Shown in pieces: positions 26,092 through 52,937 of a stretch of DNA of 64,000 bases. Each line of letters opens with the position of its first letter. Positions within the stretch are counted from its first letter, which is position 1. The position numbers and the translations under genes were made by a program. This stretch comes from Candidatus Nomurabacteria bacterium (GTDB taxonomy: Bacteria > Patescibacteriota > Minisyncoccia > Phycocordibacterales > SBAW01). The notes below the pieces were generated by a model. It saw nothing but the letters and a program-made list of their open reading frames with translations. It made no database searches and was not told the DNA's origin. Where the stretch lies: NCBI GenBank assembly GCA_943356495.1, contig CALRFF010000002.1:165875-229874 (forward strand), in the 5' to 3' direction.

Positions 26092-26111
26092 TAGGGTATA
26101 CTAGCGTAAAA

Positions 26112-39962: not shown

Positions 39963-41327
39963 CACATCAGGGAGAGCCTGAAGTATCGCTTGTGCGATGC
40001 GTTCCCCCGCTTTGCCGTCTTGCAATGGCCCGTACTGCTCTCGCGAGAGCAACTCGCGCCGTTCGCGGTCGAGCTCGGGATGTGCGAGATACTTCAGCAG
40101 CCACTCCAAAAGCTCCACTTTGCTTTTGACGATACGAAAGCCGCCGGTAGCGACCGCGTTACTATGGTGCTCGGTGCCGTAATAAAAGGTAGGGGTCTTG
40201 AGCCACTCTTTTACGGGCTTTAATAAAAAATCGATATTTATGACCGGCGTACCGACCACGGCGGCGTCGACGCTGATTGACGAGGTGTAGGTAACCAACA
40301 CGGCGGCATGCTTGAGCGATGAGTTGAGGTCGCGCAGGTCGGCGTCTGTCATGTCCCAGTCGCCGCCGCGCTCGGGCCCTAGCCGTATGCCCGGCAAGTC
40401 GTAGATAAGCCACGGGCGTTTAGCAATTTCCTCTTTATCTAAAAAGTCGTTGGGCTGAAAGCGCACCAACATCTGCGCATCGGGGACCTCCTTTGTTTCG
40501 TCGATCATCCGGTGCAAGAGGTCGATGAGCTCCCAGTCACTGTCGCTAAAGGTGGCACCCATGGGGGCGACCAGTACCAGTTTTTTGGCGGGATCGAGGC
40601 CCTTTTTTGCAAAAAATGTCTCCCGCGGCTCGGGCTCTTCGGTGATGTAGCGGTCGTACTGCGGTATACCAGTGAGCACGATACGCTCGGCCGGCATGTC
40701 CGCATGCCGCACAGCGTCCCTTTTAACGGCCTCGTTGTACACAATCATCACGTCGGGCAGTAGCCGCACAGTCCAACGGGCCGTCAGGCGGTCCCATGAG
40801 TTGATAAACCCAACGGTCTTGATACCGAGCCGCTTGGCCTCGCGCAGGAGCGATATCTCCACATCGTCGAAAAGGTTGGTGCACACCAACAAATCCGGCG
40901 CCTCGGCGCGCAAAAGTTCTGATACCCGCGGATCGCGGATAAGATGACGGTCGAGCGTGCGGATCACTCGGCGCACTGGCCCCATCGAGCAGATGCGATT
41001 GAGCAGAACGCCGCCGATAAAGTTGGCGTACCGCCCAGTGTCGTGAGCCAGCATGCGGCGGCGCAAGTCGGTGGTCTTGGTACGTATCGTGTATTTTTTT
41101 AGAAAGCCGAACAGCTTCTCGAACATGCCTGGCGGCGCCTCATAAAACGCGATATACGAGGTGCGCGGCAGGGTAAACTCTTGCGCATAATGAAAGGCAC
41201 GTTCCTCGCTTTGCACGAGCATCTGTAGCTCGACCTGTGGGTCGGCAAGAAGGGTCTTTACAATATCGGTCCGCAGGACATTTTTGACCGTAACGGCCTG
41301 CGTAATGGTTACAAGGACTTTTTGCAT
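39942..41327 (-). CDS. TagB/TagF-family alditol-phosphotransferase-like protein, paralog 3 (minus strand)
   Basis: KKLVLVAPMGATF, MLVRFQPNDF, LKHAAVLVTYTSSISVDAAVVGTPVINIDF. Confidence 0.45.
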   Translation of the reverse strand: MQKVLVTITQAVTVKNVLRTDIVKTLLADPQVELQMLVQSEERAFHYAQEFTLPRTSYIAFYEAPPGMFEKLFGFLKKYTIRTKTTDLRRRMLAHDTGRYANFIGGVLLNRICSMGPVRRVIRTLDRHLIRDPRVSELLRAEAPDLLVCTNLFDDVEISLLREAKRLGIKTVGFINSWDRLTARWTVRLLPDVMIVYNEAVKRDAVRHADMPAERIVLTGIPQYDRYITEEPEPRETFFAKKGLDPAKKLVLVAPMGATFSDSDWELIDLLHRMIDETKEVPDAQMLVRFQPNDFLDKEEIAKRPWLIYDLPGIRLGPERGGDWDMTDADLRDLNSSLKHAAVLVTYTSSISVDAAVVGTPVINIDFLLKPVKEWLKTPTFYYGTEHHSNAVATGGFRIVKSKVELLEWLLKYLAHPELDRERRELLSREQYGPLQDGKAGERIAQAILQALPDVLHTGAL

Positions 41328-41359
41328 GTGGTGTAGTTATATACTACTATTGCCGCTGT

Positions 41360-42538
41360 ATGAAGGTAACCTCGGTAGACATGCTGCACGCCGACGCGGG
41401 TTGGCGCCCGTGGTCGTTCGTTAAAATCGTGACCGACACGGGGCTTGTGGGCTGGAGCGAGTGCACCGACTCGCACGGTTCGCCGCGGGGCATGGAGGGG
41501 GTGGTGCGCGACTTGGCGCCGCTTATTGTGGGAGAGGACCCGCGCCGCATCGAATTGTTGCTTGCCCGCATGCACGCGCGCACGCGCCAAAGCCCCGGTA
41601 GTGTAGTCCAAAAAGCAATCGGCGGGATAGAAAACGCATTGTGGGATATTACCGGCAAGGCGCTCGGCGTGCCGGTGCACGCCCTTTTTGGCGGCGCGGT
41701 GCGTGACCAGATACCGCTGTATTGGTCGCACTGCGGCACGTCGCGCGTGCGCGCGTGGCAGACCGTAGGGAAGCCCCAGATTAAAACGCAGGCGGACCTC
41801 GACTTGTTTGGCGCAGAAGTGAAAGCCTCGGGATTTACCGCGCTCAAGACGAATATCGGCATACTCTCCGGCGAGCCGCGGGTGTATATGCCGGGATTTT
41901 ATAAAAGCGAAGGCGGCCCCGAACGTAACGCCGACACAGCGCTGCTAAAAGAAATAGACGCCTGGGTCGGCGGCATGCGCCGCGCGGTGGGGGACGATAT
42001 CGGCATTGCGCTCGACCTTAACTTTAACTTTAAGACCGAAGGGTACATTAAGGTCGGCCGCATGTTAGAGAAATATAATTTATTGTGGCTCGAGATAGAC
42101 ACCTACGACCCCGATGCCCTGCGGCAGATAAAAGACGCAGTACGCACGCCGGTTACTTCGTGCGAAAACCTGTACGGTTTGCGCCAATATCGCCCCTATT
42201 TTGAAAAGCATGCCATGGACGTCGCTTCGGTAGATGTTATTTGGAACGGATTTTCCGAATCAAAAAAAATAGCCGACATGGCCAACTTGTATGAAATGAA
42301 CGTCACCCCGCACAACTACAACGGGCATCTTTCGACCGCGATAAGCGCTCATTTTTGCGCGCTGGTACCGAACCTGCGCATGATGGAAGTCGACGTGGAC
42401 GACGTGCCGTGGCGCGACGAGTTGTTTACCGCGGTGCCTAAGGTGGTAAACGGCATGCTCGGCGTACCGCAAAGTCCCGGTTGGGGAGTCGATGTCAATG
42501 AAGAGGTACTTAAAGCGCATCCGTGGCCAAAACCATAA
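41360..42538 (+). CDS. Enolase-superfamily enzyme (mandelate racemase/muconate lactonizing enzyme family; acid-sugar dehydratase-like)
   Basis: SFVKIVTDTGLVGWSEC, ALDLNFNF, metal-ligand spacing typical of the galactonate/rhamnonate dehydratase subgroup. Confidence 0.75.
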   Translation: MKVTSVDMLHADAGWRPWSFVKIVTDTGLVGWSECTDSHGSPRGMEGVVRDLAPLIVGEDPRRIELLLARMHARTRQSPGSVVQKAIGGIENALWDITGKALGVPVHALFGGAVRDQIPLYWSHCGTSRVRAWQTVGKPQIKTQADLDLFGAEVKASGFTALKTNIGILSGEPRVYMPGFYKSEGGPERNADTALLKEIDAWVGGMRRAVGDDIGIALDLNFNFKTEGYIKVGRMLEKYNLLWLEIDTYDPDALRQIKDAVRTPVTSCENLYGLRQYRPYFEKHAMDVASVDVIWNGFSESKKIADMANLYEMNVTPHNYNGHLSTAISAHFCALVPNLRMMEVDVDDVPWRDELFTAVPKVVNGMLGVPQSPGWGVDVNEEVLKAHPWPKP

Positions 42539-43365
42539 TCCCTAAGACTATAGGCATACTCGGCCCCGGCGCCATCGGGGGTCTTTTGGCGCAGCGCTTG
42601 GCCGCCTGCGGGCATCGCATGGTGCTACTTGGCCGCGGCGAACGGCTTACCGAGCCGGTCGACCTGCTTTTTATAACCGTTAAGTCGCCGCATCTTGTCG
42701 AGGCGCTTGCCCAAGTGCCGCGCGAGCATGTGGTGGGCGCGGTAACCGTGCCGCTCTTAAACGGCGCGGGTCATGCGGCAGCCGTCCGCGCCGCGCTCGG
42801 CACGCCGGTTGCTGCAGGCACTATCGGTTCGGTCGAGGCAGTAGTTGAAGACGGTGTGGCAAAACAGTTGTCGGTTAATCCGCCGCATATAGACCTTGCC
42901 TCGCGCGAAGTGTCGCGCGAAATGCTCAATACTATAGCCGAGATACTGCGCGACGCGGGGCTGAGCGTCTCGGTCTTAGATAGCGAAGAAGAAGTGGTAT
43001 GGAAAAAGTTGGTGCGGCTTAACGCGATAGCCACCGCCACCGCCGCGGCAGGCCAGCCACTGGGTATGGTGCGCACCGACCCTGTGTGGCGCCCCGTGCT
43101 TGAAGCGTTAGTGCAAGAAAGTTCTGCGGTTGCCGCCGCCGAAGGGGTTGCGGTACCGCCCGCACAAGTACTTGCCGACATCGACAAGTTGCCGGCATCG
43201 CTTATGACGTCGCTCCAACGCGATATCGCGGCGGGGAAACCATCGGAACTCGATGCCATACCGGGCGGGGTGCTTGCGCTTGCGGCGCGCTACGGCGTGG
43301 CGTGCCCCGTGCTTGCGGCGCAGTATGCCGCCTTGATAAAACACACAAAGTCGCCAATAGTATAA
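42523..43365 (+). CDS. 2-dehydropantoate 2-reductase (ketopantoate reductase, ApbA/PanE) family oxidoreductase
   Basis: IGILGPGAIGGLLAQRLAACGH Rossmann N-terminus, ApbA_C-like VWKKLVRLNAIATATAAAG. Confidence 0.65.
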   Translation: MAKTIIPKTIGILGPGAIGGLLAQRLAACGHRMVLLGRGERLTEPVDLLFITVKSPHLVEALAQVPREHVVGAVTVPLLNGAGHAAAVRAALGTPVAAGTIGSVEAVVEDGVAKQLSVNPPHIDLASREVSREMLNTIAEILRDAGLSVSVLDSEEEVVWKKLVRLNAIATATAAAGQPLGMVRTDPVWRPVLEALVQESSAVAAAEGVAVPPAQVLADIDKLPASLMTSLQRDIAAGKPSELDAIPGGVLALAARYGVACPVLAAQYAALIKHTKSPIV

Positions 43366-43369
43366 CGGT

Positions 43370-44104
43370 ATGGATAGCGCGCCGAAGATTATGGTGCTTG
43401 TGGGCATACGCTCGGGCTCTAAGGGCGTGCCTAATAAAAATATACGGCCCTTGGCGGGCAAGCCCTTGGTCGGCTGGATACTTGAGGCCGCCGCGCGCTC
43501 AAAGCACGTCAATCGGATTGTCGTGTCGACCGACAGCGAAGAGTATGCCGCAGTAGCGCGTAGCTTTGGCGCCGAGGTGCCGGTGCTGCGCCCTGTCGAG
43601 CTTGCGGCAGACCGCTCTCCGGAGTTTGAGTATGTCAAACACATGCTGGCGTGGTTGCGCGAACACGAAGGCTACGAGCCCGACCTTGTGGTGCGTGCGA
43701 TGGCGACGGTGCCGCTACAATCAACCGAGGACATCGACGGCGTGGTGGAGCTGTTGCTCGGCGACTCCGCGGCGGACTCGGCGGTAGTCGTTGCCGAGGC
43801 GCATCAGCATCCGCACAAAGCGTTAAAAATAGTAGAGGAGGGAGGGCATAAAAAAGTACTCACCTATTTTACCGACAGCGGCCGCGAGGTAACGCCGCTT
43901 GCGCGCCAAGGGTACGAAAAAGCCTACTTCCGCGCCAACATTATCGCGTTCCGTCCGCGGGTTATTAAAGACACCGACTCGCTTACCGGCGACACCGTGC
44001 GGCCGTACGTCATACCGCAGGACCGTGCGGTCGATATAGACAGTGAAGCGGATTTTTTTATCATCGAACAGCTTATCAATAGCCGCCGCGGGGAAAACCG
44101 ATAA
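43370..44104 (+). CDS. Acylneuraminate cytidylyltransferase-like (CMP-ulosonic acid synthetase family, CTP_transf_3), copy 1
   Basis: VGIRSGSKGVPNKNIRPLAGKPLVGW (NeuA/KdsB-type motif). Confidence 0.75.
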   Translation: MDSAPKIMVLVGIRSGSKGVPNKNIRPLAGKPLVGWILEAAARSKHVNRIVVSTDSEEYAAVARSFGAEVPVLRPVELAADRSPEFEYVKHMLAWLREHEGYEPDLVVRAMATVPLQSTEDIDGVVELLLGDSAADSAVVVAEAHQHPHKALKIVEEGGHKKVLTYFTDSGREVTPLARQGYEKAYFRANIIAFRPRVIKDTDSLTGDTVRPYVIPQDRAVDIDSEADFFIIEQLINSRRGENR

Positions 44105-44109
44105 TTCGT

Positions 44110-44526
44110 ATGGCCGTACATATTATAAAAGCGCAGATAGACGAAACGCTTGCCGCGGCGCCGCTGCAGGGCAAACATCTCGTCGAGCCGCTCAAAAGCA
44201 TTGCCGCCCAAACCGGCTTCCCGCTTAAAGTGCTTGAGGACGTTGCCGTAGTAAACGAGGCCGAGATACATAAGACCGAAGGCGACCTCTGGCAATGCGT
44301 CGAAGGAGAGGTGGAGTTTATATGCGGGGGCGAATTGGTTGACCCGCGTTTTGTTAAACGCGCCGACGGCTCGGACAATACTGATGAGCTTAAGGCGGCG
44401 GAGATACGCGGCGGCGTTAAAACTATACTGCGTCCCGGCGATTGGCTGTGGATACCTCCGGGCGAGCCGCACGTGCACTCATGTGCCGGCGTCGCGCGGT
44501 TGCTTATAGTTAAAATTCCGCGGTAA
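44110..44526 (+). CDS. Cupin-fold protein
   Basis: Small beta-rich protein ending LRPGDWLWIPPGEPHVH. Cupin assignment is tentative. Confidence 0.35.
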   Translation: MAVHIIKAQIDETLAAAPLQGKHLVEPLKSIAAQTGFPLKVLEDVAVVNEAEIHKTEGDLWQCVEGEVEFICGGELVDPRFVKRADGSDNTDELKAAEIRGGVKTILRPGDWLWIPPGEPHVHSCAGVARLLIVKIPR

Positions 44527-44529
44527 TCT

Positions 44530-44578
44530 TGACAAAAATAATTTTTGTGATTACTGTATGCGCAGAGTCAACTGAGGA
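44530..44578 (+). promoter_or_regulatory. Internal sigma70-like promoter (TTGACA-17-TACTGT) plus strong SD (GAGGAG) ahead of the second cupin gene
   Basis: TTGACAAAAATAATTTTTGTGATTACTGT ... TGAGGAGATCTTCCATG read directly from the sequence. Confidence 0.45.
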
Positions 44579-44586
44579 GATCTTCC

Positions 44587-45018
44587 ATGGCTAAACACAT
44601 CGGTGTTGAGTTCGTTGAGCCCAAAGAAGTCGGCCCGCGGCCATGGGGGCGCGAGCTCCTTATCGGCGTGGTACCGGGGCACTACAGCTTCAAGATTCTG
44701 GAAGTGAAGGCCGGCAACAAGGGCGGCCTCCAGAAGCATCACCAGAAGGACGAGATGGGGTATCTGGTGTCGGGGCGGCTTATTGTGCGCTTTGACCCCG
44801 GCACCGGCACGATTGAGGAGAAGGTACTCGGTCCCGGCGCCTGCTTCCACTTTCCGCCCGGGGCGGTGCATCAGGAAGAGGCTCTGACCGACTGCGTCAT
44901 CATCGAAGCCTCGACCCCGCACTTTAACGACCGGGTGCGGATGGAGCCCCAGTACGGGATGGAAATCCCGCCGGGTGGGCTCCCTTCAACCAAGCCCGAG
45001 GACGTCGAAACCCGCTGA
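44587..45018 (+). CDS. Cupin_2 domain protein (resembles the C-terminal cupin of mannose-6-phosphate isomerase/GDP-mannose pyrophosphorylase)
   Basis: PWGRELLIG ... KAGNKGGLQKHHQKDEMGYLVSGRL ... FHFPPGAVHQEE. Confidence 0.55.
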   Translation: MAKHIGVEFVEPKEVGPRPWGRELLIGVVPGHYSFKILEVKAGNKGGLQKHHQKDEMGYLVSGRLIVRFDPGTGTIEEKVLGPGACFHFPPGAVHQEEALTDCVIIEASTPHFNDRVRMEPQYGMEIPPGGLPSTKPEDVETR

Positions 45019-45107
45019 ATATGCAACCTTTTCCCCCGTGTGCCGTTATAAATGGCACCCGGGGTATTTTCTTGATAGAAACAAAACCTTGTGGTACAGT
45101 GCGACCC

Positions 45108-46244
45108 ATGTCAGAGAGCCCAAAACCCAACTTCCGGGAGCAATTGCGCGGTGCTAAAAGCACCTTTTATCTCAGTGCTCAAAAGATAGGTCACGGCCAG
45201 CCGGCGTACTTTATCGCCGAGATAGGCAACAACCACAACGGAGACTTTTTTCTTGCCAAACGCAGTATCGAAGAAGCGGCCAAGGCGGGCGCTCACGCGG
45301 TCAAATTTCAAAAACGCTCTATCAACGACACGTTTGCAAAAGAGTTGCGCGATAAGCCCCAGACCAAAGGTGACATTAAAGGCACTACGTACGGCACCTA
45401 TCGCGAAGGGCTTGAGCTTTCGTTCGAGCAGTTTGTCGAGCTTAAAAAGGTCGCCGAGTTCCACAAGGTCGCCTTTTTTGCGACTCCGTTTGATATACCG
45501 AGCGTCGACTTTTTGGAAAAGGTAGGGGTGCCGTTTTATAAAATAGCGTCCTTCGATGTTACTAACCTGCCGCTTCTTGCGCGCGTTGCCGAAACAAAGA
45601 AGCCGGTCATACTCTCGACCGGCATGGCCACACTCGAAGAGATAGATGAGGCTGTCTCCACGATACTTGCGCACCACAACGAGCTCGCAATTTTGCACTG
45701 CGTTTCTATTTACCCGTCTCCGGACGAGGTTATTAATATCGGCGGCATCAAAATTTTGGAGCGGCGCTACCACCCGTTGCCGATAGGCTACTCGGGCCAC
45801 GAGCAGGACATATTGGCCAGCCTGACCGCCGTCGCGCTCGGCGCATCTATTGTCGAGCGGCATTTTACCCTGTCGCGTTTGCTCCCCGGCCCCGACCATG
45901 CGTCGGTGTCGATAGAACCCCACACCTTTGCCGAGATGGTGCGCTCGGCCGCGCGTATGCGCACTATCCGCGGCACTCGCGGCAAAGAGCTTCTTGATGC
46001 GGAAAAAGTAACCCGCGACAAGCACGGCAAAAGCGTCGTTGCAAAAGTCGCCATACCTAAAGGTGCGATCATTACCGAAGCTATGCTTACCTGCAAGAGC
46101 CCCGGGTACGGACTGAAGCCCCGCGACCTACCGGCGTTGGTCGGTTTGCGTACCACGTGCGCTATTGATGCCGACGCCGTTATCCGACGCGAGGACATCG
46201 CTTGGGAAGACCGCTTGGTCCCCGCCGTACACCCGCAGTCATGA
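45108..46244 (+). CDS. N-acetylneuraminate synthase family (NeuB/LegI/PseI-like PEP-condensing synthase) with C-terminal SAF domain
   Basis: YFIAEIGNNHNGDFFLAKRSIEEAAKAGAHAVKFQKR, plus a C-terminal antifreeze-like/SAF region. Start at MSESPK. Confidence 0.8.
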   Translation: MSESPKPNFREQLRGAKSTFYLSAQKIGHGQPAYFIAEIGNNHNGDFFLAKRSIEEAAKAGAHAVKFQKRSINDTFAKELRDKPQTKGDIKGTTYGTYREGLELSFEQFVELKKVAEFHKVAFFATPFDIPSVDFLEKVGVPFYKIASFDVTNLPLLARVAETKKPVILSTGMATLEEIDEAVSTILAHHNELAILHCVSIYPSPDEVINIGGIKILERRYHPLPIGYSGHEQDILASLTAVALGASIVERHFTLSRLLPGPDHASVSIEPHTFAEMVRSAARMRTIRGTRGKELLDAEKVTRDKHGKSVVAKVAIPKGAIITEAMLTCKSPGYGLKPRDLPALVGLRTTCAIDADAVIRREDIAWEDRLVPAVHPQS

Positions 46245-46990
46245 GCGTCCCAAAAATTTTAGCCGTTATACCCGTGCGCGGGGGCTCTAAGTCGGTCCCG
46301 CGCAAAAATATCCGCCTGCTCGGAGGCAAGCCTTTGGTTGCGCACGTACTCGATGCGGCGCTCGACTCGAAGATGCTTACTTGTGTGGCGGTGTCCTCTG
46401 AAGACCCGGAGATTCTTGCGGTCGCCGCCCAGCACGGCCGCGGTCGCGCGGAAATTATTACCCGCCCCGCGGCGTTGGCTCAGGACGACACGCCCTCCTT
46501 GCCGGTTATTGTGCACGCGGTCGAGGAGCTGGAAAAAAAGCACGGCCGCTTTGACTACGTGGTCATGTTGCAGGCGACTACTCCTTTTGTGCGCACGGAA
46601 GACATAGACGCCTCTCTGAAACTCCTTTTAGATGCCGGCACCGACTCGGTGTTTTCGGTCTGCAAGGCGACCTCGTATCATCCTGCAAAAATGAAGCGCA
46701 TTACCGACGATAACCGCTTGGTGCAGTATGTCGAAGGTATGCCTGAAACCCAGTTTACCCGACAGAAGTTAGATCCAGTATACCGCCGCAACGGCGGGAT
46801 ATACGCGCACAAGCGCGCGGTCGTTATGGAGCGGGGGCTCCTGTACGGTTCGGACAGTACGGTGTGCCGGCCGTATATCATGAGCGACGAACGCTCGGTC
46901 GACATAAACAGCATGGCCGACTTTTTGGCGGCTGAAGCCATTTTCGGCTATTTGCAGGCAGGAGGAGAAGAAAAGTTCGGTAAAAAATAA
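46241..46990 (+). CDS. Acylneuraminate cytidylyltransferase-like (CTP_transf_3), copy 2
   Basis: LAVIPVRGGSKSVPRKNIRLLGGKPLVAHVL. ATGA overlap with the upstream stop. Confidence 0.75.
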   Translation: MSVPKILAVIPVRGGSKSVPRKNIRLLGGKPLVAHVLDAALDSKMLTCVAVSSEDPEILAVAAQHGRGRAEIITRPAALAQDDTPSLPVIVHAVEELEKKHGRFDYVVMLQATTPFVRTEDIDASLKLLLDAGTDSVFSVCKATSYHPAKMKRITDDNRLVQYVEGMPETQFTRQKLDPVYRRNGGIYAHKRAVVMERGLLYGSDSTVCRPYIMSDERSVDINSMADFLAAEAIFGYLQAGGEEKFGKK

Positions 46991-46991
46991 T

Positions 46992-48707
46992 ATGCCCGCC
47001 CATAAAAATATAGACACTATTTGCATAGCGCCCGACACCGCGATAGCGGACACGTTGCGGGTGCTTGCCCGCAACAAGCCGCAAAAAAGCGGTATCCCCG
47101 GCGGCATCGCATTAGTGGTCGACGATTCCCGCACGCTTTTAGGGCTCGTCACCAGCGGAGACTTGCTGCGCGCGGTCGCCAAAGGCACGCCTTTGGCGCG
47201 GCCGGTGCGGAGCATTATGAATAAGGACCCGTTTGTGATTGTCGGCCGGCAGCCCGCCGCCGAGGTGGTGCGCCTTGCGGTGCAAAAAACCCGCGAAGAG
47301 GGCTGGCACAAAGACAGGCTGGAAAAAATTGTCATTGTCGACGCCAAGCGCAAGGTGCTTGATTTGGTCGACCTGTATGACCTGTGGCAGGGCAGCGACA
47401 TACGTCTGCGCCGTATCGCGGTCGTGGGGCTCGGCTACGTAGGGCTTACGTTGGGCCTGACGCTCGCGGATTTGGGCTTTGAAGTGCGGGGGTTTGATCT
47501 GAACGAAAAAGTGCGTGCCATGGTGTCGCGCAAAAAAGCGCCGTTTTTTGAGCTGGGGCTCCCCGAGCTTTTGACCACGCATGTGGGCAAGCGCTTTGCG
47601 GCCGTGGGCACGCTTACCGGCAACGAGTGCGAGGCGTATTTTATTGCCGTCGGTACGCCGCTTAACGCCGCTAAAAAGCCGGACCTCGGACACTTGCGCG
47701 CCGCGGCACAAAGCGTCGGTAAAGTATTAAAGCAAGGTGATGTCGTTATATTGCGTTCGACCGTGCCGCTCGGCACCACGCGCACGGTGGTAGTGCCGAT
47801 ACTGGAAAAGGCATCGGGGCTTACGGCGGGCGAAGACTTTTATGTCGCGTTTGCGCCGGAGCGCACGGTCGAGGGCAAGGCGCTCGAAGAGCTGCGCACC
47901 CTGCCGCAGGTTATCGGCGGTATTAACCGCGCCTCGGCCAACGTGGCGGCGGATATTTTTAACCTGATGACGCGCACTATCCACTTGGTGGACACGCTCG
48001 AAGAGGCCGAGGTGATAAAACTTATCAACAACACCTACCGCGACGTGTCCTTTGCTTTTGCCAACGAAGTGGCGCTTATCTGCCAACGCTGGGGGATAGA
48101 TACCAACAAAGTCATTACCGCGGCCAACGCCGGCTACGAGCGCAGCCGCGTCCCCAAGCCGTCCCCCGGGGTGGGCGGGTACTGTTTGGACAAAGATCCG
48201 TACATTTTTATCGAAGGCGGCAAAGCAAAACAGTACGAGTCCGCGCTGTTTAAAGAAGCGCGCGCGGTTAATACCGCTATTTTGCAGGTAGTGGTCGCTG
48301 ACGCCGTGGCGCACTTGCGTGCCGCGGGCAAAAAAAATCCGAAAGTCTTCGTGCTCGGCTTTGCCTTTAAGGGCAAGCCGGCCACCTCCGACCTGCGCGG
48401 CTCCTCCACGCTTATATTGGTCGAGGGTCTGCGTAAAGCGGGATACAAAAACATCCACGGCTTTGACCCGGTGGTCGGCGCTGCCGAGCTGCGCAAACTG
48501 CGCGTGCGCCCCGTTGCCGACCCGAAAGAAGGGTTTAAAGCTGCCGACTTGGTGATTATTATGAACAATCACGCGTACTTCGAGCAGCCCGACATGGTGC
48601 GCCACCTGCGCCACGCCGCCAAAGGCGCGCTCTTTTTTGACACTTGGGCGCTCCACAATCCGGAAGAAGTCGCCAAAATCTCCAACATCAAGTACCGCCG
48701 CCTATAA
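46992..48707 (+). CDS. CBS-pair domain fused to a UDP-glucose/GDP-mannose dehydrogenase family nucleotide-sugar dehydrogenase
   Basis: N-terminal about 130 aa CBS pair, then IAVVGLGYVGLTLGLTLADLGFEV Rossmann motif and catalytic PGVGGYCLDKDP. Confidence 0.8.
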   Translation: MPAHKNIDTICIAPDTAIADTLRVLARNKPQKSGIPGGIALVVDDSRTLLGLVTSGDLLRAVAKGTPLARPVRSIMNKDPFVIVGRQPAAEVVRLAVQKTREEGWHKDRLEKIVIVDAKRKVLDLVDLYDLWQGSDIRLRRIAVVGLGYVGLTLGLTLADLGFEVRGFDLNEKVRAMVSRKKAPFFELGLPELLTTHVGKRFAAVGTLTGNECEAYFIAVGTPLNAAKKPDLGHLRAAAQSVGKVLKQGDVVILRSTVPLGTTRTVVVPILEKASGLTAGEDFYVAFAPERTVEGKALEELRTLPQVIGGINRASANVAADIFNLMTRTIHLVDTLEEAEVIKLINNTYRDVSFAFANEVALICQRWGIDTNKVITAANAGYERSRVPKPSPGVGGYCLDKDPYIFIEGGKAKQYESALFKEARAVNTAILQVVVADAVAHLRAAGKKNPKVFVLGFAFKGKPATSDLRGSSTLILVEGLRKAGYKNIHGFDPVVGAAELRKLRVRPVADPKEGFKAADLVIIMNNHAYFEQPDMVRHLRHAAKGALFFDTWALHNPEEVAKISNIKYRRL

Positions 48708-49813
48708 TGGAACCCTGCATTGTCACTAACTTCGCGTACGGCACGGGGCCGTACCTGCGCACGACCGAGCTTGCGCTCGCCTTTAACGACGAGCTCGAGC
48801 GCCGCGGGCACAAGCGCATGAAGATAGTGGTGCCCTTGGTGTACGGCGAGCGGCAAAAACAAGTATTGGCAGAGGAATTCGGCGAGCATCCTGAAATTAT
48901 ATTTGACGAAACGCTCGGTGCGCTGTTAAAGAGCGTGTTTTATACGGGCGAGAAAAAATATGAAGAGAGTCTGCGTACGTGGATAACAAAGGCAGACGAG
49001 GTGTCGCGCGCCGCGCATGAGTATTTGAAAGACAAAAACGTCGCGGTCGAGATTAACCGCTCTCCGCGCGTGCGCTACGATGTGGCGCCCAGCTACTCGA
49101 CCGGCTTTGGCTACGTCGCCGATATTCTGGAGCATGCGCTGGCCGCGGGCCGTAGTGTGGTCGATGTAGACCCCGAGTTGCTTAAGGCCGGTATTGCGCT
49201 TGCCGACCGCATCGAGGGTAAGCAAGATTTGCGTTGCATGGCGTATCCCGCAACCTTTTCGTCGTTCCAAAACTACAAGCCGCGCTACGACGGCGAGGTG
49301 CTTGTCCCGCCGATTACCGACCTGCCCAAGGCGCGCGTGCACGAGCCGATGGAAGACGGTTTGTTTGTAACGATTACCGGTATTGAAGGGCTCGAACGTT
49401 TGTACGCCGAGGCCCGCGCGCTGGGGCTAAAGCTGTACTCCAACGACACCGGTGCCGTAGCGGGTGCGGTTAAAGCGTTACCGCACGTGCTCGGTAACCC
49501 CGCTATTAAACTGCAGTTTGCGCGCGCGGGCTGGGGGTCGGTATGGCTGTCGATGTTTACCGGCGTGCCGGTAGTGGTGCCGCAATACGACAAAACCGAT
49601 GACCCGGAGATTTATTGCAACAACAAAGCGGTCGAAGCAACCGGCATCGGTGTGGTGTACCGCGGCCAGCCGCTTGTGGAGATTATGGCGCAGGGCGACG
49701 CCGTGCGCGCAGCCCAAAAAAAGATGCGGGACGCTATTGTGGCGCGGTGGGGGACGCTTAGCGGCAACGAGGTGTGCGCCAAACTCATGGCCGACCGGTT
49801 TCTTGCCAAGTAG
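48707..49813 (+). CDS. Hypothetical GT-B-fold-like protein (possible nucleotide-sugar hydrolase/glycosyltransferase such as PseG/MurG-like)
   Basis: C-terminal ARAGWGSVWLSMFTGVPVVVPQY resembles the GT28 C-terminal donor-binding motif. Start chosen at MEPCIV. Weak assignment. Confidence 0.3.
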   Translation: MEPCIVTNFAYGTGPYLRTTELALAFNDELERRGHKRMKIVVPLVYGERQKQVLAEEFGEHPEIIFDETLGALLKSVFYTGEKKYEESLRTWITKADEVSRAAHEYLKDKNVAVEINRSPRVRYDVAPSYSTGFGYVADILEHALAAGRSVVDVDPELLKAGIALADRIEGKQDLRCMAYPATFSSFQNYKPRYDGEVLVPPITDLPKARVHEPMEDGLFVTITGIEGLERLYAEARALGLKLYSNDTGAVAGAVKALPHVLGNPAIKLQFARAGWGSVWLSMFTGVPVVVPQYDKTDDPEIYCNNKAVEATGIGVVYRGQPLVEIMAQGDAVRAAQKKMRDAIVARWGTLSGNEVCAKLMADRFLAK

Positions 49814-49840
49814 GCGGTTTTTATGTACAGTGTTTCGGCT

Positions 49841-50821
49841 ATGACAAAGCTGATAGTCGAGATTTGCCAAAACCACAACGGCTCGCGCGAGACCGTGCGC
49901 GAAATGATACAGGCCGCCGCACTGGCCGGCGCCGATATTATTAAAATGCAGTCTATGTGGTCGGCCGACCTACCTAAGCGCGAGCGCTTTGAGGAAGGCG
50001 AAGTGCACGCGCAGACCGGTATCCGCACCGCTATTAAGCGCCCCCACGGCCCCGAGCAGGAGCGTCTTGCCACACTTGACCTCTCTATAGACGACCATCA
50101 GTTTTTTATCGACACCTGCCACCGGTACGGGGTGTTGCCGATGACCACTATTTTCTCGCGGCACCGTATTGCGGAGGTTGCGGGCCCCAAAGCCCCCGGC
50201 AAATGGGTTAAGGTGGCAAGTTACGATTGCGCCAGTTACCCCATGCTGCGCGAGCTTGCCGAGCATTTTGATAACTTTATTATCTCGACCGGCGCAACCT
50301 ACGACCACGAGATACAAAAAACCGCCGAGCTTATGAAAAGTTTGGGTAAAAACTTTTCCTTTTTGCATTGCGTCACCAGCTACCCTAACGCGCTCGAAAT
50401 CTGCAACCTTGCGCGCATGGAGTGGTTGCGGCAGTTTACGCCGACGGTCGGTTGGAGCGACCACACCAAGATAGCCGACACCGGTTTGGCGGCGGCAAAA
50501 ATCGCCATTATGCTCGGTGCCGACTACGTCGAGCGGCACTTTACTATTTTGCCCGCCGATCAGACCAAAGACGGACCGGTTTCGATTAATCCCGCGATGC
50601 TCCGCGAGCTCTCCGCGTTTCGCAATCTTTCCAAAGCGCAGCAGCAGGAGCAGATAGCAAAAGAATATCCTAACTGGAAGTCTGCCGTAGGCGTGCCGGT
50701 GCGCGAGATGGGCCATATCGAGCTCCTCAACCGCGACTATTACCGTGGTCGCTTCGCCAGCCCCGACGGCAACGGCGGGTGGATATATAATTGGGAGGAA
50801 AAGCCGGTGCGCTTTGCCTAA
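49841..50821 (+). CDS. Divergent NeuB-family (N-acetylneuraminate synthase-like TIM barrel) protein without SAF domain
   Basis: LIVEICQNHNGSRETVREMIQAAALAGADIIKMQ and HCVTSYP parallel the first NeuB-like gene (IAEIGNNHNGD ... AVKFQ, HCVSIYP). Confidence 0.55.
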   Translation: MTKLIVEICQNHNGSRETVREMIQAAALAGADIIKMQSMWSADLPKRERFEEGEVHAQTGIRTAIKRPHGPEQERLATLDLSIDDHQFFIDTCHRYGVLPMTTIFSRHRIAEVAGPKAPGKWVKVASYDCASYPMLRELAEHFDNFIISTGATYDHEIQKTAELMKSLGKNFSFLHCVTSYPNALEICNLARMEWLRQFTPTVGWSDHTKIADTGLAAAKIAIMLGADYVERHFTILPADQTKDGPVSINPAMLRELSAFRNLSKAQQQEQIAKEYPNWKSAVGVPVREMGHIELLNRDYYRGRFASPDGNGGWIYNWEEKPVRFA

Positions 50822-51765
50822 TGAAAATTCTCAACCTGGTCGAACAATTTAGCGAGGAAGCAAAAAGCGTCCTTGCGGCGCTCGGCGAGGTTGACTATCG
50901 CTCGGTACGCCAAGAGGAGCTTGCGGCCGCAGTGGCGCCGTATGAGGCGCTCTTTGTGCGTCTCGGTCTCCAATACGACAAGACGGTTATAGACGCCGCG
51001 CCGAATCTGAAATACATCGCGACCGCTACGACCGGTCTTAACCATATCGATGTCGCGTATGCCGAGTCTAAAGGTATCAAGGTCATATCGCTGCGCGGCG
51101 AGAACCAATTTTTAGACACCATTACCTCGACCGCCGAGCTTGCCTTTGGTTTGCTGATAGATCTCGCGCGTTACACGCCGTGGGCCTACGACTCTATCCG
51201 CCGCTACGAAATGAAGATGGACGATTTTAGGGGCACCAGCCTGTTCGGCAAAACACTGGGCATTGTCGGCATGGGGCGCTTGGGCAAGATTATCGCCGCG
51301 GGCGCCGCGGGTTGGCGCATGAACGTTGTCTTTACCGACCCCAATGTTCCGCAGGAAAAATTTCCGCAGTATACAAAAGTATCGATGGACGAGCTGCTTG
51401 GCCAAAGCGACTTCGTAAGCCTGCACGTGCACCTGCTGCCGGAAACCGCGGGGCTACTGGGGGAGTCGGCGATAGGAAAAATGAAAAAAGGCGCACTGCT
51501 GGTTAACACCTCGCGCGGCGAGTTGGTGGACGAGGCAGCGGTGTTGCGCGCGCTAGAGAACGGGCACTTGGGCGGCTACGCCACCGACGTGCTTACCCGC
51601 GAGCTCGATTTTACTAAAAAGTTTGAGAACCATCCGCTCGTTGAGTACGCCAAAAAAAGCCACAACTGCATTATGGTCCCGCACACCGGCGGCCTTACGC
51701 ACGAGTCGCGCCGCGACACCGACGTCTTTATAGCCACCAAGCTCGCTGCTGCGGTGCGCGGGTAG
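50821..51765 (+). CDS. D-isomer-specific 2-hydroxyacid dehydrogenase family protein
   Basis: GKTLGIVGMGRLGKIIA NAD motif and catalytic region LLVNTSRGELVD ... HTGG. Confidence 0.8.
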   Translation: MKILNLVEQFSEEAKSVLAALGEVDYRSVRQEELAAAVAPYEALFVRLGLQYDKTVIDAAPNLKYIATATTGLNHIDVAYAESKGIKVISLRGENQFLDTITSTAELAFGLLIDLARYTPWAYDSIRRYEMKMDDFRGTSLFGKTLGIVGMGRLGKIIAAGAAGWRMNVVFTDPNVPQEKFPQYTKVSMDELLGQSDFVSLHVHLLPETAGLLGESAIGKMKKGALLVNTSRGELVDEAAVLRALENGHLGGYATDVLTRELDFTKKFENHPLVEYAKKSHNCIMVPHTGGLTHESRRDTDVFIATKLAAAVRG

Positions 51766-51857
51766 GGTACTTGCTTTTTTATATTATACGTGCTATAATA
51801 GAAGCAGACGGCCATTACTAATACAACCGCCCCTCAGTGGGCAGAAAGAGGTGACTC

Positions 51858-52901
51858 GTGGCGAAGATTGTGCTCGCGGCCCACGATGCGGGTCCGTCGA
51901 ACGCGCTTGGCGCGTTTGCCAAGGTGCTCGACTCTCCGGCGGTGTTTCTCGCGAACGCCGGCAAGACCTACCTGAACGAAAAGGCGACGGATGCCATGCG
52001 TTACAGCATACGCACCGCCGACTTCGTGCTTATCGGGATGTCGTTCCCGGAGGCTAATGCCGCCATCGAACTGATGGCGGCAAAGACCGCCGCGGAAGCG
52101 CGGATCCCGTACGGTTTCTGCGCCGACATACCGGGCGCGTGGAACCGTGTATGGTTTGCACCGTACCGCGCGTCGGCATCATTGTTGCTTACGGTGGGCG
52201 GCGTTGAGGAGATTGCCAAAGCGACGGCGCTCTTCCCCAAAGCCTACATCACCCGCACGGGCAACCCCGAGTGGGAGAAGTACTTCCTGCCCGCGAGCCG
52301 GAGTGCGGCCCGCGGCGCAATGGGCGCAAGTGATGACGAGTTTGTCATCCTTTCGCCCGGCGGCAAAGACGCGGTGCTCAATATCCAGTCATGGTCGACG
52401 GTGGTCGAGGCCGCCTCCTTGTACCGGAGTAATGTGGCGGTCGTGCTGACTTGCCACCCCGGCGACCGCACTCCGAAGGACGTGTACCAGTCGTTGGCAC
52501 ACTACGGCCAAAAGCTCGGCGTGCGGGTGCTCTGCTCGGAAACGCCAAGCGATGTACTGGTACCCGGCGTTGATGTGGTGGTACAGACACCAAACTTTTC
52601 GGTCGGCCTGCACGCGATGTGCAGGCGAGTCCCCGTCATCGATATGATGGGGGCCATGGCCGCGGAGCGGGTGTTTGAAAACACGGGTACGCGCGAAGGT
52701 CAGTTTGCGGGTACCGAGGCGGTGTTGTCGCTGTATTACGAAGAGGCGACCGCCCCCGCTCTGGCGCAAGCATTGGTGTCGGTGCGCACCAACACCGTCA
52801 TGCGCGAAGCGCAAGAGCGGTTGCTTCCGCCGCTTAAGCAAGGCGGTGCGGTCGCGGCGATGAAAGCCGCGGTCGAAGAAGTGCTCAATAAGAAGCGTTA
52901 G
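51858..52901 (+). CDS. Hypothetical protein (last gene of the ulosonic-acid-like sub-cluster)
   Basis: GTG start with SD AAAGAGG. No recognisable motif. Followed by a strong terminator. Confidence 0.4.
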   Translation: MAKIVLAAHDAGPSNALGAFAKVLDSPAVFLANAGKTYLNEKATDAMRYSIRTADFVLIGMSFPEANAAIELMAAKTAAEARIPYGFCADIPGAWNRVWFAPYRASASLLLTVGGVEEIAKATALFPKAYITRTGNPEWEKYFLPASRSAARGAMGASDDEFVILSPGGKDAVLNIQSWSTVVEAASLYRSNVAVVLTCHPGDRTPKDVYQSLAHYGQKLGVRVLCSETPSDVLVPGVDVVVQTPNFSVGLHAMCRRVPVIDMMGAMAAERVFENTGTREGQFAGTEAVLSLYYEEATAPALAQALVSVRTNTVMREAQERLLPPLKQGGAVAAMKAAVEEVLNKKR

Positions 52902-52908
52902 CCAGCAG

Positions 52909-52937
52909 CCCCTCCGTCAAACGGAGGGGCTTTTTTC
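52909..52937 (+). terminator. Rho-independent terminator (CCCCTCCGT-CAA-ACGGAGGGG + CTTTTTTC)
   Basis: Read directly from the sequence. Confidence 0.7.

What the first reader, a model, noticed from the sequence alone, without database searches (positions are those of the whole stretch)
41360..52901. Atypical ulosonic-acid-like sub-cluster with duplicated NeuB and NeuA homologs and non-canonical partner enzymes
Two NeuB-family PEP-condensing synthases, one canonical with a SAF domain (45108-46244) and one divergent without SAF (49841-50821), sit beside two CTP_transf_3 cytidylyltransferases (43370-44104, 46241-46990).
- The expected legionaminic/pseudaminic/Neu5Ac partners (PseB/PseC-type aminotransferases, NeuC 2-epimerase) are absent.
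- Instead the neighbours are an enolase-superfamily acid-sugar dehydratase, a ketopantoate-reductase-like oxidoreductase, a CBS-fused UDP-sugar 6-dehydrogenase, a D-2-hydroxyacid dehydrogenase, two cupins and two hypothetical proteins.
- This gene content does not match any textbook nonulosonic-acid or Kdo/KDN pathway. It may make an unusual activated 2-keto-3-deoxy acid sugar, or two different ones, for the glycan built by the upstream genes.
Basis: partly seen in the sequence, partly recalled or inferred. Interest (0 to 1): 0.8.

Follow-up and report, generated by a model that had tools for sequence, protein, structure and literature searches.

The report
Two uncharacterised CMP-sugar-acid gene cassettes
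One operon joins two separate, recurring gene sets that each look able to build and CMP-activate a sialic-acid-like sugar, using helper enzymes not seen in any described pathway, so the surface sugars they make are probably of an unknown type.

Summary
Twelve co-directional, tightly packed genes (41360-52901) end at a strong terminator-like hairpin. They include two NeuB-family synthases (one without a SAF domain) and two NeuA-like cytidylyltransferases. No PseB, PseC or NeuC is detectable in the window.

The new result is that the region is two cassettes, and each recurs on its own elsewhere.

- **Cassette A:** enolase-superfamily enzyme, 2-ketoacid reductase, cytidylyltransferase, plus a NeuB+SAF synthase. 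It was found in 42 metagenome loci of 29-62% GC. The usual order there is NeuB, HAD phosphatase, SDR, aldehyde dehydrogenase, enolase-family enzyme, KPR, CT.
- **Cassette B:** CT, CBS-fused NDP-sugar 6-dehydrogenase, a new GT-B-fold protein ("HYP368", no Pfam family), SAF-less NeuB, and often a D-2-hydroxyacid dehydrogenase. It was found in 63 genome loci, almost all Patescibacteria/DPANN. One archaeon has HYP368 fused to the dehydrogenase.

No protein reaches any NCBIfam equivalog cut-off for NeuB, PseI, PseF or KdsB.

Best reading: two CMP-activated ulosonic acids, handed to TagF-like transferases. As an inference, they are tailored at a second, distal carboxylate (an "ulosaric" acid). No chemistry was tested. 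I found no literature on either cassette. It is a new variant of CMP-nonulosonate biosynthesis, possibly a new sugar class.

The parts
41360..42538 (+). Cassette A: enolase-superfamily (MR subgroup) enzyme, putative acid-sugar dehydratase ('ENO')
   Evidence: Pfam MR_MLE_N/C. Best NCBIfam hit is galactonate dehydratase, 163.7 bits, below the 311 cut-off. Best PDB hit is 2oo6/3sn0-4, of unknown function, E 4e-107. D219/E245/E269, D287, H318 and K163 are invariant in 39 cassette orthologs, and 9 substitutions are cassette-specific.
42523..43365 (+). Cassette A: ketopantoate-reductase-like 2-ketoacid reductase ('KPR')
   Evidence: ApbA/ApbA_C. TIGR00745 subfamily 146.4 bits vs 141.35; no equivalog is reached. 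It follows ENO in 40 of 42 loci. It is replaced by a 2-Hacid_dh in L100/L101.
43391..44104 (+). Cassette A: NeuA-like cytidylyltransferase ('CT1')
   Evidence: CTP_transf_3. PseF model 114 bits, below 205.7. Closest PDB entries are NeuA enzymes at E 4e-25, while KdsB scores only 1e-6. Orthologs at 55-72% identity follow KPR in 31-32 loci.
44110..44526 (+). Cassette A: cupin 1 (role unknown; candidate sugar isomerase/epimerase)
   Evidence: Cupin_2. Homologs lie next to CTs in L100, L036, L021, L023 and L057.
44587..45018 (+). Cassette A: cupin 2 (weak PMI-type similarity)
   Evidence: Cupin_2 plus a weak MannoseP_isomer hit. Homologs lie just upstream of ENO in L083, L086 and L089, and downstream in L106.
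45108..46244 (+). Cassette A: NeuB-family synthase with SAF domain ('NeuB1')
   Evidence: NeuB+SAF. TIGR03569 308 bits, below 399.65; PseI 244 bits, below 340. The Arg314 position of N. meningitidis NeuB is Ser331. Orthologs at 58-61% identity lie beside ENO in L077, L104, L106 and L107.
46241..46990 (+). Cassette B: NeuA-like cytidylyltransferase ('CT2')
   Evidence: CTP_transf_3. PseF model 131 bits, below 205.7. Closest PDB entries are NeuA enzymes. A CT lies in nearly every cassette-B locus.
46992..48707 (+). Cassette B: CBS-pair fused NDP-sugar 6-dehydrogenase ('CBS-DH')
   Evidence: CBS + UDPG_MGDP_dh N/central/C domains. TIGR03026 355.6 bits vs 189.8. The best specific models are UDP-ManNAc dehydrogenases, below their cut-offs. 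Present in 44 of 63 loci. Fused to HYP368 in P0282.
48707..49813 (+). Cassette B: 'HYP368', a new GT-B-fold family (candidate NDP-sugar-processing enzyme or glycosyltransferase)
49823..50821 (+). Cassette B: SAF-less NeuB-family synthase ('NeuB2')
   Evidence: NeuB domain only. TIGR03569 137 bits, below 399.65. More than 2700 homologs, the listed ones 59-80% identical. All catalytic residues are invariant, and a conserved Arg-rich C-terminal tail takes the place of SAF.
50821..51765 (+). Cassette B: D-2-hydroxyacid dehydrogenase ('HADH')
   Evidence: 2-Hacid_dh/2-Hacid_dh_C. Closest PDB entries are 3-phosphoglycerate dehydrogenase catalytic domains. Present in 30 of 63 cassette-B loci, often between CT and HYP368.
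51858..52901 (+). 'HYP347': rare GT-B-fold protein, leaning towards NDP-sugar 2-epimerase
52907..52931 (+). Terminator-like hairpin closing the operon
   Evidence: 11-bp stem, 8 G-C pairs, T-run; the top-ranked site of the region.
52968..55199 (+). Wzy_C (O-antigen ligase/polymerase-like) + TPR membrane protein; recurrent neighbour of cassette B
   Evidence: Pfam. Homologs in 19 of 63 cassette-B loci.
39942..41327 (-). TagF-like (Glyphos_transf) transferase, divergent from ENO; candidate CMP-sugar-acid transferase
   Evidence: Pfam. A Glyphos_transf protein recurs in 31 of 63 cassette-B loci. There is one in L155 and two in L104 next to cassette A.
35170..36543 (+). Second TagF-like (Glyphos_transf) transferase
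   Evidence: Pfam. Same recurrence as above.

Best explanation
The 11.5-kb operon is a fusion of two independent biosynthetic cassettes. Each makes its own CMP-activated, NeuB-derived ulosonic acid for the large glycan locus upstream. The likely users are the two TagF-like transferases and the Wzy_C-TPR protein.

Shown here:
- Each cassette has its own PEP-condensing synthase with intact catalytic residues and its own NeuA-type cytidylyltransferase.
- Each cassette recurs as a unit in many unrelated contigs.

Inferred chemistry, cassette A:
1. NeuB1 condenses PEP with an aldose. In the commoner marine version the substrate is an aldose phosphate, followed by a HAD phosphatase.
2. The far end of the chain is turned into a carboxylate. 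This is done by SDR + aldehyde dehydrogenase, or in other loci by an NDP-sugar 6-dehydrogenase acting before condensation.
3. The enolase-superfamily enzyme removes the proton next to that new carboxylate and eliminates the beta-hydroxyl.
4. KPR, or a D-2-hydroxyacid dehydrogenase in some loci, reduces the resulting 2-keto acid.
5. CT1 adds CMP.
The product would be a deoxy 'ulosaric' (dicarboxylic) acid.

Inferred chemistry, cassette B:
1. The CBS-fused dehydrogenase makes a UDP-HexNAc-uronic acid.
2. The GT-B protein HYP368 releases or rearranges it, in a role like that of NeuC or PseG.
3. SAF-less NeuB2 condenses the uronic acid with PEP.
4. HADH tailors the alpha-hydroxy-acid end.
5. CT2 adds CMP.

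My confidence is about 0.75 for 'two separate non-canonical CMP-ulosonate cassettes' and about 0.3 for the distal-carboxylate chemistry.
For: Gene content and packing. Terminator at 52907.

Cassette A recurrence:
- ENO homologs of about 56% identity or more are followed by KPR (40 of 42 loci) and CT1 (31-32 of 42, at 55-72% identity). Lower-identity ENO homologs have neither.
- NeuB lies upstream in 18 of 22 loci with at least 3 kb of flank.
- The common gene order NeuB, HAD, SDR, ALDH, ENO, KPR, CT matches the proposed order of reactions.
- ALDH is present in 13 of those 22 loci and an NDP-sugar dehydrogenase in 3. They never occur together.
- KPR is replaced by a 2-Hacid_dh directly after ENO in L100/L101.
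- ENO keeps its metal ligands and acid/base residues, with cassette-specific changes in the capping loop.

Cassette B recurrence:
- 63 loci: HYP368 62, CBS-DH 44, NeuB2 41, a CT in about 50, HADH 30.
- A natural HYP368::CBS-DH fusion exists.
- NeuB2 catalytic residues are invariant across 120 homologs, and an Arg-rich tail replaces SAF.
- HYP368 has a GT-B fold.

Other points:
- Both CTs are closest to NeuA, not KdsB.
- Both cassettes occur together again on JGI contig Ga0209515_10000436.
- TagF-like transferases recur next to both cassettes.
Against: - No product was observed and no enzyme was assayed.
- The window's own cassette A lacks the SDR, ALDH and HAD genes. The source of a second carboxylate there is only guessed: the CBS-DH next door, or a uronic-acid substrate.
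- Six of 22 cassette-A loci show neither an ALDH nor an NDP-sugar dehydrogenase within the fetched flank.
- To my knowledge no natural nonulosaric acid has been described.
- Gene order is suggestive, not proof of reaction order.
- Co-occurrence counts come from my own BLAST tallies on stop-to-stop ORFs.
Confidence: 0.5

Rival explanations
1. Cryptic canonical pathway. HYP347 and/or HYP368 are very divergent hydrolysing 2-epimerases (NeuC/LegG analogues). NeuB1 and NeuB2 then make ordinary Neu5Ac- or Leg-type sugars. The enolase-family enzyme, KPR, HADH and CBS-DH make other components of the glycan, such as uronic acids or hydroxy-acid substituents, rather than acting on the nonulosonate.
For: - Both hypothetical proteins have the GT-B fold of NeuC.
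- Both CTs are closest to CMP-Neu5Ac synthetases.
- NeuB1 is closest to N. meningitidis NeuB.
Against: - NeuB1 and NeuB2 fall well below the NeuB and PseI equivalog cut-offs.
- NeuB1 has Ser at the Arg314 position, and NeuB2 lacks the whole SAF domain.
- ENO and KPR sit between the synthase and the CT in a conserved order in dozens of loci. That is hard to explain if they serve another sugar.
- HYP347 is too rare (3 homologs) to be the general partner of cassette B.
- 18 of 63 cassette-B loci carry a normal Epimerase_2 + NeuB + CT set in addition. Cassette B is therefore not simply that pathway.
Confidence: 0.2
2. HYP368 is a true glycosyltransferase. It uses the UDP-uronic acid made by the dehydrogenase it is sometimes fused to, and transfers it to a small acceptor or lipid carrier. 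This resembles BshA or MshA, with HADH supplying a hydroxy-acid acceptor. NeuB2 + CT2 make an unrelated CMP-sugar from a different precursor.
For: - Fusion of a donor-making enzyme to its transferase is a plausible alternative meaning of P0282.
- More distant HYP368 homologs in DPANN archaea (L056, L064, L066-L068, L071) have no NeuB2 or CT nearby.
Against: - HYP368 is 45-72% identical across most of the bacterial (Patescibacteria) loci, and NeuB2 51-80%. That is more typical of a core metabolic enzyme than of glycan-specific transferases.
- It sits directly between the dehydrogenase and NeuB2 in most loci.
- By inspection, the N-terminal loop (YGTGPYLR) has no His where inverting GT1 enzymes have their catalytic His. 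I did not test this rigorously.
Confidence: 0.2
3. The enolase-family and KPR genes are an unrelated sugar-acid catabolic or pantothenate-related pair that lies next to a nonulosonate cluster by chance.
For: Both families are best known from catabolism and cofactor synthesis. KPR just passes the generic 2-dehydropantoate reductase subfamily cut-off (146.4 vs 141.35 bits).
Against: - The ENO/KPR/CT1 order is conserved in 31-40 of 42 loci spanning 29-62% GC, inside glycan loci.
- ENO overlaps KPR by 16 nt, and the whole set is one terminator-bounded operon.
- ENO homologs outside the cassette (55% identity or less) lack KPR and CT1.
Confidence: 0.03

Closest known systems
Bacterial CMP-Neu5Ac / CMP-legionaminic acid pathways (NeuC/LegG, NeuB/LegI, NeuA/LegF)
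   Same: A PEP-condensing NeuB-family synthase with all catalytic residues, followed by a NeuA-type CTP_transf_3 cytidylyltransferase. The GT-B-fold proteins are possible counterparts of the hydrolysing 2-epimerase.
   Different: - No Epimerase_2, PseB/LegB or PseC/LegC by sequence.
- The synthases and CTs score below every equivalog cut-off.
- NeuB2 has no SAF domain, and NeuB1 lacks the Arg314 equivalent.
- Extra enzymes not used in those pathways: an enolase-superfamily enzyme, KPR, a D-2-hydroxyacid dehydrogenase and an NDP-sugar 6-dehydrogenase.
Kdn pathway (Kdn-9-P synthase, HAD-family Kdn-9-P phosphatase, CMP-Kdn synthetase), as described in Bacteroides thetaiotaomicron and Prymnesium parvum (from my own knowledge, plus the title/abstract of PMC6200933)
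   Same: The commoner form of cassette A has NeuB+SAF directly followed by a small HAD phosphatase, with a CT further on. That is the Kdn logic of condensing a sugar phosphate and then dephosphorylating.
   Different: - SDR, aldehyde dehydrogenase, enolase-family enzyme and KPR are inserted between the phosphatase and the CT.
- The window's own copy has no HAD phosphatase, SDR or ALDH. It has two cupins instead.
Enolase-superfamily acid-sugar dehydratases (galactonate, mannonate, glucarate/galactarate dehydratases) and PDB 2oo6/3sn0-3sn4 from Burkholderia xenovorans (function unassigned)
   Same: Two-domain MR_MLE fold. Metal ligands and the His/Asp pair are conserved. E 4e-107 to 2oo6.
   Different: - Below all equivalog cut-offs.
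- Nine conserved substitutions, mostly in the capping loop, separate cassette members from the non-cassette group.
- The context is biosynthetic (synthase, CT), not catabolic.
3-deoxy-D-lyxo-hept-2-ulosaric acid (Dha) of plant RG-II and green-algal scales (known dicarboxylic 2-keto-3-deoxy sugar; and my own knowledge)
   Same: It is a 2-keto-3-deoxy sugar with a second carboxylate at the far end. That is the type of product proposed here.
   Different: Dha has seven carbons and is eukaryotic, and its biosynthesis is not known to use NeuB or enolase-family enzymes. No nine-carbon ulosaric acid is known to me.
Teichulosonic acids of Gram-positive actinomycetes (cell-wall polymers of Kdn or Pse/Leg-type residues; my own knowledge) and TagF-type polymerases
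   Same: CMP-ulosonate genes sit beside TagF-like (Glyphos_transf) GT-B transferases, in organisms that appear to be Patescibacteria.
   Different: No polymer has been characterised in these organisms. Use of CMP-sugar acids by these TagF-like proteins is an inference.

Membership tests
N-acetylneuraminate/legionaminate synthase (NCBIfam TIGR03569, equivalog) | Whole-protein score at or above the curated cut-off of 399.65 bits | tested here: not met
   NeuB1 308.4 bits; NeuB2 137.3 bits.
NeuB family (Pfam PF03102) | NeuB TIM-barrel domain with the PEP/metal/catalytic residues of N. meningitidis NeuB (E25, K53, Q55, K129, S132, S154, Y186, S213, H215, E234, H236, D247) | tested here: met
   Domain scores 257.9 bits (NeuB1) and 151.9 bits (NeuB2). 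The residues map to E13, K41, Q43, K130, S133, S155, Y187, S212, H214, E237, H239 and D250 in NeuB2, and are conserved in at least 97% of 120 homologs. They are also present in the NeuB1 alignment.
Canonical bacterial sialic acid synthase architecture | C-terminal SAF (antifreeze-like) domain supplying Arg314 to the sugar site | tested here: not met
   NeuB1 has SAF, but Ser331 aligns with Arg314. NeuB2 has no SAF; a conserved NR.YYRGRF tail is there instead. The role of Arg314 is from my own knowledge; 4ipi/4ipj are its mutants.
Pseudaminic acid synthase PseI (TIGR03586) | Score at or above 340.25 bits | tested here: not met
   NeuB1 243.8 bits; NeuB2 113.1 bits.
CMP-nonulosonate synthetases (PseF TIGR03584; NeuA type) | CTP_transf_3 fold and an equivalog score at or above 205.7 bits | tested here: inconclusive
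   CTP_transf_3 is met for both. PseF model scores are 114.3 and 130.9 bits, below the cut-off. The closest solved structures are NeuA enzymes, E 1e-22 to 1e-25.
CMP-Kdo synthetase KdsB | KdsB equivalog/subfamily cut-offs (155-281 bits) | tested here: not met
   Best scores 52-53 bits. PDB KdsB E-values are only 1e-6 to 1e-10.
Canonical Pse/Leg/Neu5Ac gene set | Presence of a PseB/LegB 4,6-dehydratase (Polysacc_synt_2), a PseC/LegC aminotransferase (DegT) or a NeuC/LegG (Epimerase_2) with the synthase | tested here: not met
   None was found among the ORFs of the 64-kb window that were scanned. The rest of the genome is not available to me.
Enolase superfamily, acid-sugar dehydratases | MR_MLE N- and C-domains, three carboxylate metal ligands, a general base/acid, and an equivalog score for a named dehydratase | tested here: inconclusive
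   Domains are met. D219/E245/E269, K163, D287 and H318 are invariant. Galactonate dehydratase scores 163.7 bits (cut-off 311) and ManD 131.8 bits (cut-off 550), so neither is met. The substrate is unknown.
2-dehydropantoate 2-reductase (PanE/ApbA) | TIGR00745 subfamily cut-off of 141.35 bits; equivalog cut-offs of 252-500 bits | tested here: inconclusive
   146.4 bits just passes the subfamily model. No equivalog is reached; the best is 118 bits against 252. The context argues against pantothenate synthesis.
NDP-sugar 6-dehydrogenase (TIGR03026 subfamily) | Three UDPG_MGDP_dh domains and a score at or above 189.8 bits | tested here: met
   355.6 bits. All three domains plus an N-terminal CBS domain. 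The specific UDP-ManNAc, UDP-GlcNAc and UDP-Glc dehydrogenase equivalogs are not reached.
UDP-GlcNAc 2-epimerase / NeuC (Pfam Epimerase_2) | Sequence match to PF02350; GT-B fold with the epimerase active site | tested here: inconclusive
GT1 UDP-glycosyltransferases | GT-B fold, a C-terminal nucleotide-sugar motif, and an N-terminal catalytic His | tested here: inconclusive

The most novel reading that the evidence does not exclude
Both cassettes make nine-carbon 2-keto-3-deoxy sugars that carry a second carboxylate at the far end ('nonulosaric acids'). No such sugar class has been described.

The distal carboxylate would be installed by SDR + aldehyde dehydrogenase or by an NDP-sugar 6-dehydrogenase. 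It would then be tailored by enzymes that act only next to carboxylates: an enolase-superfamily dehydratase, and KPR or D-2-hydroxyacid dehydrogenases.

Cassette B, with its new GT-B family and SAF-less synthase, would be a signature surface-sugar pathway of Patescibacteria and some DPANN archaea.
Probability: 0.25. Interest if true: 0.85.

Novelty: new variant of a known kind. Interest (0 to 1): 0.7.

Why it matters
Nonulosonic acids cap bacterial surface glycans and control recognition by hosts, phages and partner cells. All described routes to them use a small set of partner enzymes.

Here two recurrent gene sets pair NeuB/NeuA-type enzymes with partners never linked to these sugars. One set is spread through marine and freshwater bacteria. 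The other is nearly confined to the ultra-small, episymbiotic Patescibacteria and DPANN archaea, whose surface chemistry and attachment to hosts are poorly understood.

The work yields:
- testable enzyme orders;
- a new GT-B protein family with a confident structural model;
- a SAF-less synthase family with more than 2700 members;
- a functional context for an orphan enolase-superfamily group close to PDB 2oo6.

If the distal-carboxylate idea holds, it adds a new class of acidic sugar and new biocatalysts for making it.

Tried and rejected
1. **Sequence searches of the two hypothetical proteins.** Searches against Pfam, NCBIfam and PDB gave nothing. Only structure prediction was informative.
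2. **Naming the source organism.** Exact-protein look-ups returned only unnamed ENA/Logan metagenome contigs, and the cluster-member list carried no names. The window's 16S rRNA could not be compared with any reference collection using these tools. 'Patescibacteria-like' rests only on the best relatives of NeuB2, HYP368 and Wzy.
3. **Literature searches.** I searched nonulosonic acid + Patescibacteria, enolase superfamily + cytidylyltransferase + NeuB, the PDB codes 2OO6/3SN0/3SN4/3GO2, mandelate racemase/KPR + sialic acid synthase terms, and 'ulosaric acid'. Nothing on either cassette turned up. The SugarBase preprint shows that new CMP-ulosonic acids are still being found, but it does not link to these genes.
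4. **'Enolase/KPR is a neighbouring catabolic operon'.** Rejected on the neighbourhood counts.
5. **'One pathway with duplicated NeuB/NeuA'.** Rejected because each half recurs alone. No ENO or KPR was found in the 63 cassette-B loci. No HYP368 or NeuB2 was found in the 80 ENO loci.
6. **Formal phylogeny.** Placing the NeuB and CT copies against reference NeuB/LegI/PseI/Kdn-9-P synthase clades was not possible, because no reference sequences could be fetched. HMM cut-offs and PDB ranking were used instead.
7. **Single-linkage clustering of stop-to-stop ORFs.** It merged some families through overlapping ORFs. Counts were therefore taken from best-hit tallies.

Full report
**1. What is in the sequence**

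Between 41360 and 52901 there are twelve co-directional genes. They are separated by at most 93 nt and several overlap.

- The strongest terminator-like hairpin of the region lies at 52907-52931, right after the last gene.
- Upstream (17.8-41.3 kb) is a large glycan locus. It holds many GT4 and methyltransferase genes, a GDP-mannose 4,6-dehydratase, a C-methyltransferase, a carbamoyltransferase and two TagF-like Glyphos_transf proteins. Downstream are a Wzy_C-TPR protein, MurB and SecA.
- No PseB, PseC or NeuC-type domain was found in any scanned ORF of the window.

**2. The region is two cassettes, each recurrent on its own**

*Cassette B (46241-51765)*

- The SAF-less NeuB has more than 2700 homologs. 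The listed ones are 59-80% identical, and many come from Parcubacteria/Paceibacterota MAGs.
- The hypothetical protein next to it (HYP368) has 307 homologs, all unnamed and without Pfam domains, on the same contigs.
- Its true start is ATG 48707.
- A scan of one genome per species with the HYP368 alignment returned 63 loci. Nearly all are Patescibacteria. Seven archaeal loci (six labelled DPANN lineages), one Bdellovibrio MAG and one fragment labelled Gammaproteobacteria make up the rest.
- My BLAST tally of window proteins in those loci was: HYP368 62, CBS-dehydrogenase 44, SAF-less NeuB 41, a CT in about 50, D-2-hydroxyacid dehydrogenase 30, Wzy_C-TPR 19, enolase-family 0, KPR 0.
- A TagF-like transferase recurs in 31 loci. 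A normal Epimerase_2 + NeuB + CT set is present in addition in 18.
- In one Woesearchaeota genome HYP368 is fused to the CBS-dehydrogenase. In P0282 (985 aa), residues 415-979 are 43% identical to the window dehydrogenase.
- The HYP368 family is small and isolated: 214 cluster representatives at E up to 1e-3 among 1.84 billion proteins.

*Cassette A (41360-46244)*

- A metagenome scan with the enolase-family protein gave 80 loci.
- Where the homolog is about 56% identical or more, it is followed by KPR (40 of 42 loci) and by a CT1 ortholog of 55-72% identity (31-32 of 42). Homologs of 55% or less have neither.
- These loci span 29-62% GC, so many taxa are involved.
- The commonest order is NeuB+SAF, small HAD phosphatase, SDR, aldehyde dehydrogenase, enolase-family enzyme, KPR, CT. 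A transketolase-like gene often follows.
- Among the 22 loci with at least 3 kb upstream, NeuB is present in 18, an aldehyde dehydrogenase in 13, and an NDP-sugar dehydrogenase in 3. The two kinds of dehydrogenase never occur together.
- In L100/L101 a D-2-hydroxyacid dehydrogenase takes KPR's place directly after the enolase-family gene.
- The window's flavour has a NeuB1 of about 60% identity, cupins, and no SDR, ALDH or HAD. It recurs in L077, L104, L106 and L107.
- L106 lies on the same JGI contig as L155, which carries cassette B. The two cassettes are therefore neighbours in a second genome.

**3. The proteins**

- *Synthases.* Both keep every catalytic, PEP-binding and metal-binding residue of N. 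meningitidis NeuB. Both score far below the NeuB and PseI equivalog cut-offs. NeuB1 has Ser where NmNeuB has Arg314 of the SAF domain. NeuB2 has no SAF. It has an invariant Arg-rich tail (N303 R304. Y306 Y307 R308 G309 R310 F311) and several other invariant arginines. That would suit an anionic substrate, but this is an inference.
- *Cytidylyltransferases.* Both are closest to CMP-Neu5Ac synthetases and only remotely similar to KdsB.
- *Enolase-family protein.* It keeps its metal ligands (D219, E245, E269) and K163, D287 and H318. It differs from the non-cassette group at nine conserved positions, mostly in the capping loop at 18-39. That non-cassette group resembles PDB 2oo6, E 4e-107.

**4. 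Most likely mechanism**

*Shown:* two synthase + CT pairs, each embedded in its own conserved neighbourhood and joined here into one operon.

*Inferred:* the unusual partner families share one property. Each either creates a carboxylate from a primary alcohol or aldehyde, or acts on the carbon next to a carboxylate.

- Carboxylate-forming: NDP-sugar 6-dehydrogenase; SDR + aldehyde dehydrogenase.
- Acting next to a carboxylate: the enolase-superfamily enzyme, which needs an alpha-proton; KPR and D-2-hydroxyacid dehydrogenases, which interconvert 2-keto and 2-hydroxy acids.

The C1 carboxylate of an ulosonic acid has a keto group at C2 and no alpha-proton. These enzymes therefore need a second carboxylate.

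Three observations fit a route in which the distal end of the NeuB product is oxidised to a carboxylate, then dehydrated and reduced (net deoxygenation), and the sugar is then CMP-activated:

- the gene order NeuB, HAD, SDR, ALDH, ENO, KPR, CT;
- the ALDH and NDP-sugar dehydrogenase never occurring together;
- the swap of KPR for a 2-Hacid_dh.

For cassette B the same logic gives: UDP-HexNAc to UDP-HexNAc-uronic acid (CBS-DH), release or epimerisation (HYP368), condensation with PEP (NeuB2), tailoring (HADH), CMP activation (CT2). The two TagF-like transferases and the Wzy_C-TPR protein are the likely users.

I put about 0.75 on 'two separate non-canonical CMP-ulosonate cassettes' and about 0.3 on the distal-carboxylate chemistry.

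**5. Weak points**

- Nothing was assayed.
- The window's cassette A has no SDR, ALDH or HAD.
- Six of 22 cassette-A loci show no carboxylate-forming enzyme in the fetched flank.
- HYP368 looks more like a transferase than like NeuC or PseG.
- The HYP347 model rests on three sequences.
- The organism could not be named.

**6. Comparison with what is known**

- The system works like CMP-nonulosonate biosynthesis (NeuB + NeuA chemistry). The marine form of cassette A begins like the Kdn pathway (synthase + HAD phosphatase).
- It is not a member of the Neu5Ac, Leg, Pse, Kdn or Kdo pathways as defined by equivalog models or partner genes (see the membership table).
- Seven literature searches found no description of either cassette.
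[quoted passage not shown] This chemical space is evidently still open, though that paper makes no link to these genes.

**7. Verdict**

It is a new variant of a known kind of pathway. There is about a one-in-four chance that it encodes a new class of dicarboxylic nine-carbon sugar. Interest 0.7.

Noticed in passing
window 5567-7029 (+), 7925-7997, 8033-8114: A complete bacterial 16S rRNA gene (1463 nt) is followed by two tRNAs and then protein genes. No 23S rRNA lies beside it, so the rRNA operon is unlinked. The 16S could name the organism but could not be compared with any reference collection here.
   Followed up: partly
L061 9968-12946; protein P0282: A Woesearchaeota genome encodes a single 985-aa protein that fuses the HYP368 GT-B domain to the CBS-NDP-sugar dehydrogenase. 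It lies directly after a CT and a SAF-less NeuB.
   Followed up: yes
L073, L075, L076, L078, L079, L084 and others; e.g. L075 5473-7419 and 7412-8827: In 13 marine/freshwater cassette-A loci, the CT is followed by a transketolase-like ThDP enzyme (about 650 aa) and a conserved 472-aa protein with no Pfam family. This hints at further carbon-chain chemistry. Both are absent from the window.
   Followed up: partly
L056, L064, L066, L067, L068, L071: More distant HYP368 homologs (28-34% identity) in six archaeal loci (five labelled DPANN lineages) have no NeuB2, CT or CBS-dehydrogenase nearby. They may have a different role.
   Followed up: partly
window 17822-39962: The upstream glycan locus is unusually rich in modifying enzymes: at least six methyltransferases, a sugar C-methyltransferase (37804-39006), a carbamoyltransferase (33468-35168), a GDP-mannose 4,6-dehydratase (26070-27137) and seven GT4 genes. 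Three ORFs of 310-484 aa have no Pfam family: 28269-29723, 30429-31361 and 32092-33441.
   Followed up: no
window 8205-8813 and 9232-9870: Two tandem fasciclin-domain proteins lie just after the rRNA/tRNA genes.
   Followed up: no
window 13691-17895: This stretch holds a 434-aa ORF with no family, a HerA/TraG-like coupling ATPase (15027-16775) and a ComEA-like HHH + PKD protein (16759-17895). It may be a DNA-uptake or secretion module placed between housekeeping genes and the glycan locus.
   Followed up: no
window 41327-41360: Only 32 nt separate the divergently oriented TagF-like gene (start at 41327, minus strand) from the enolase-family gene (start at 41360). No promoter-like site was reported there.
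   Followed up: no
L008/L009 227-1756 and 7466-8983; L012 6027-7676: B12-binding radical-SAM enzymes flank cassette B in several Paceibacterota loci (9 loci in the cluster tally). They may methylate or otherwise modify the sugar.
   Followed up: no
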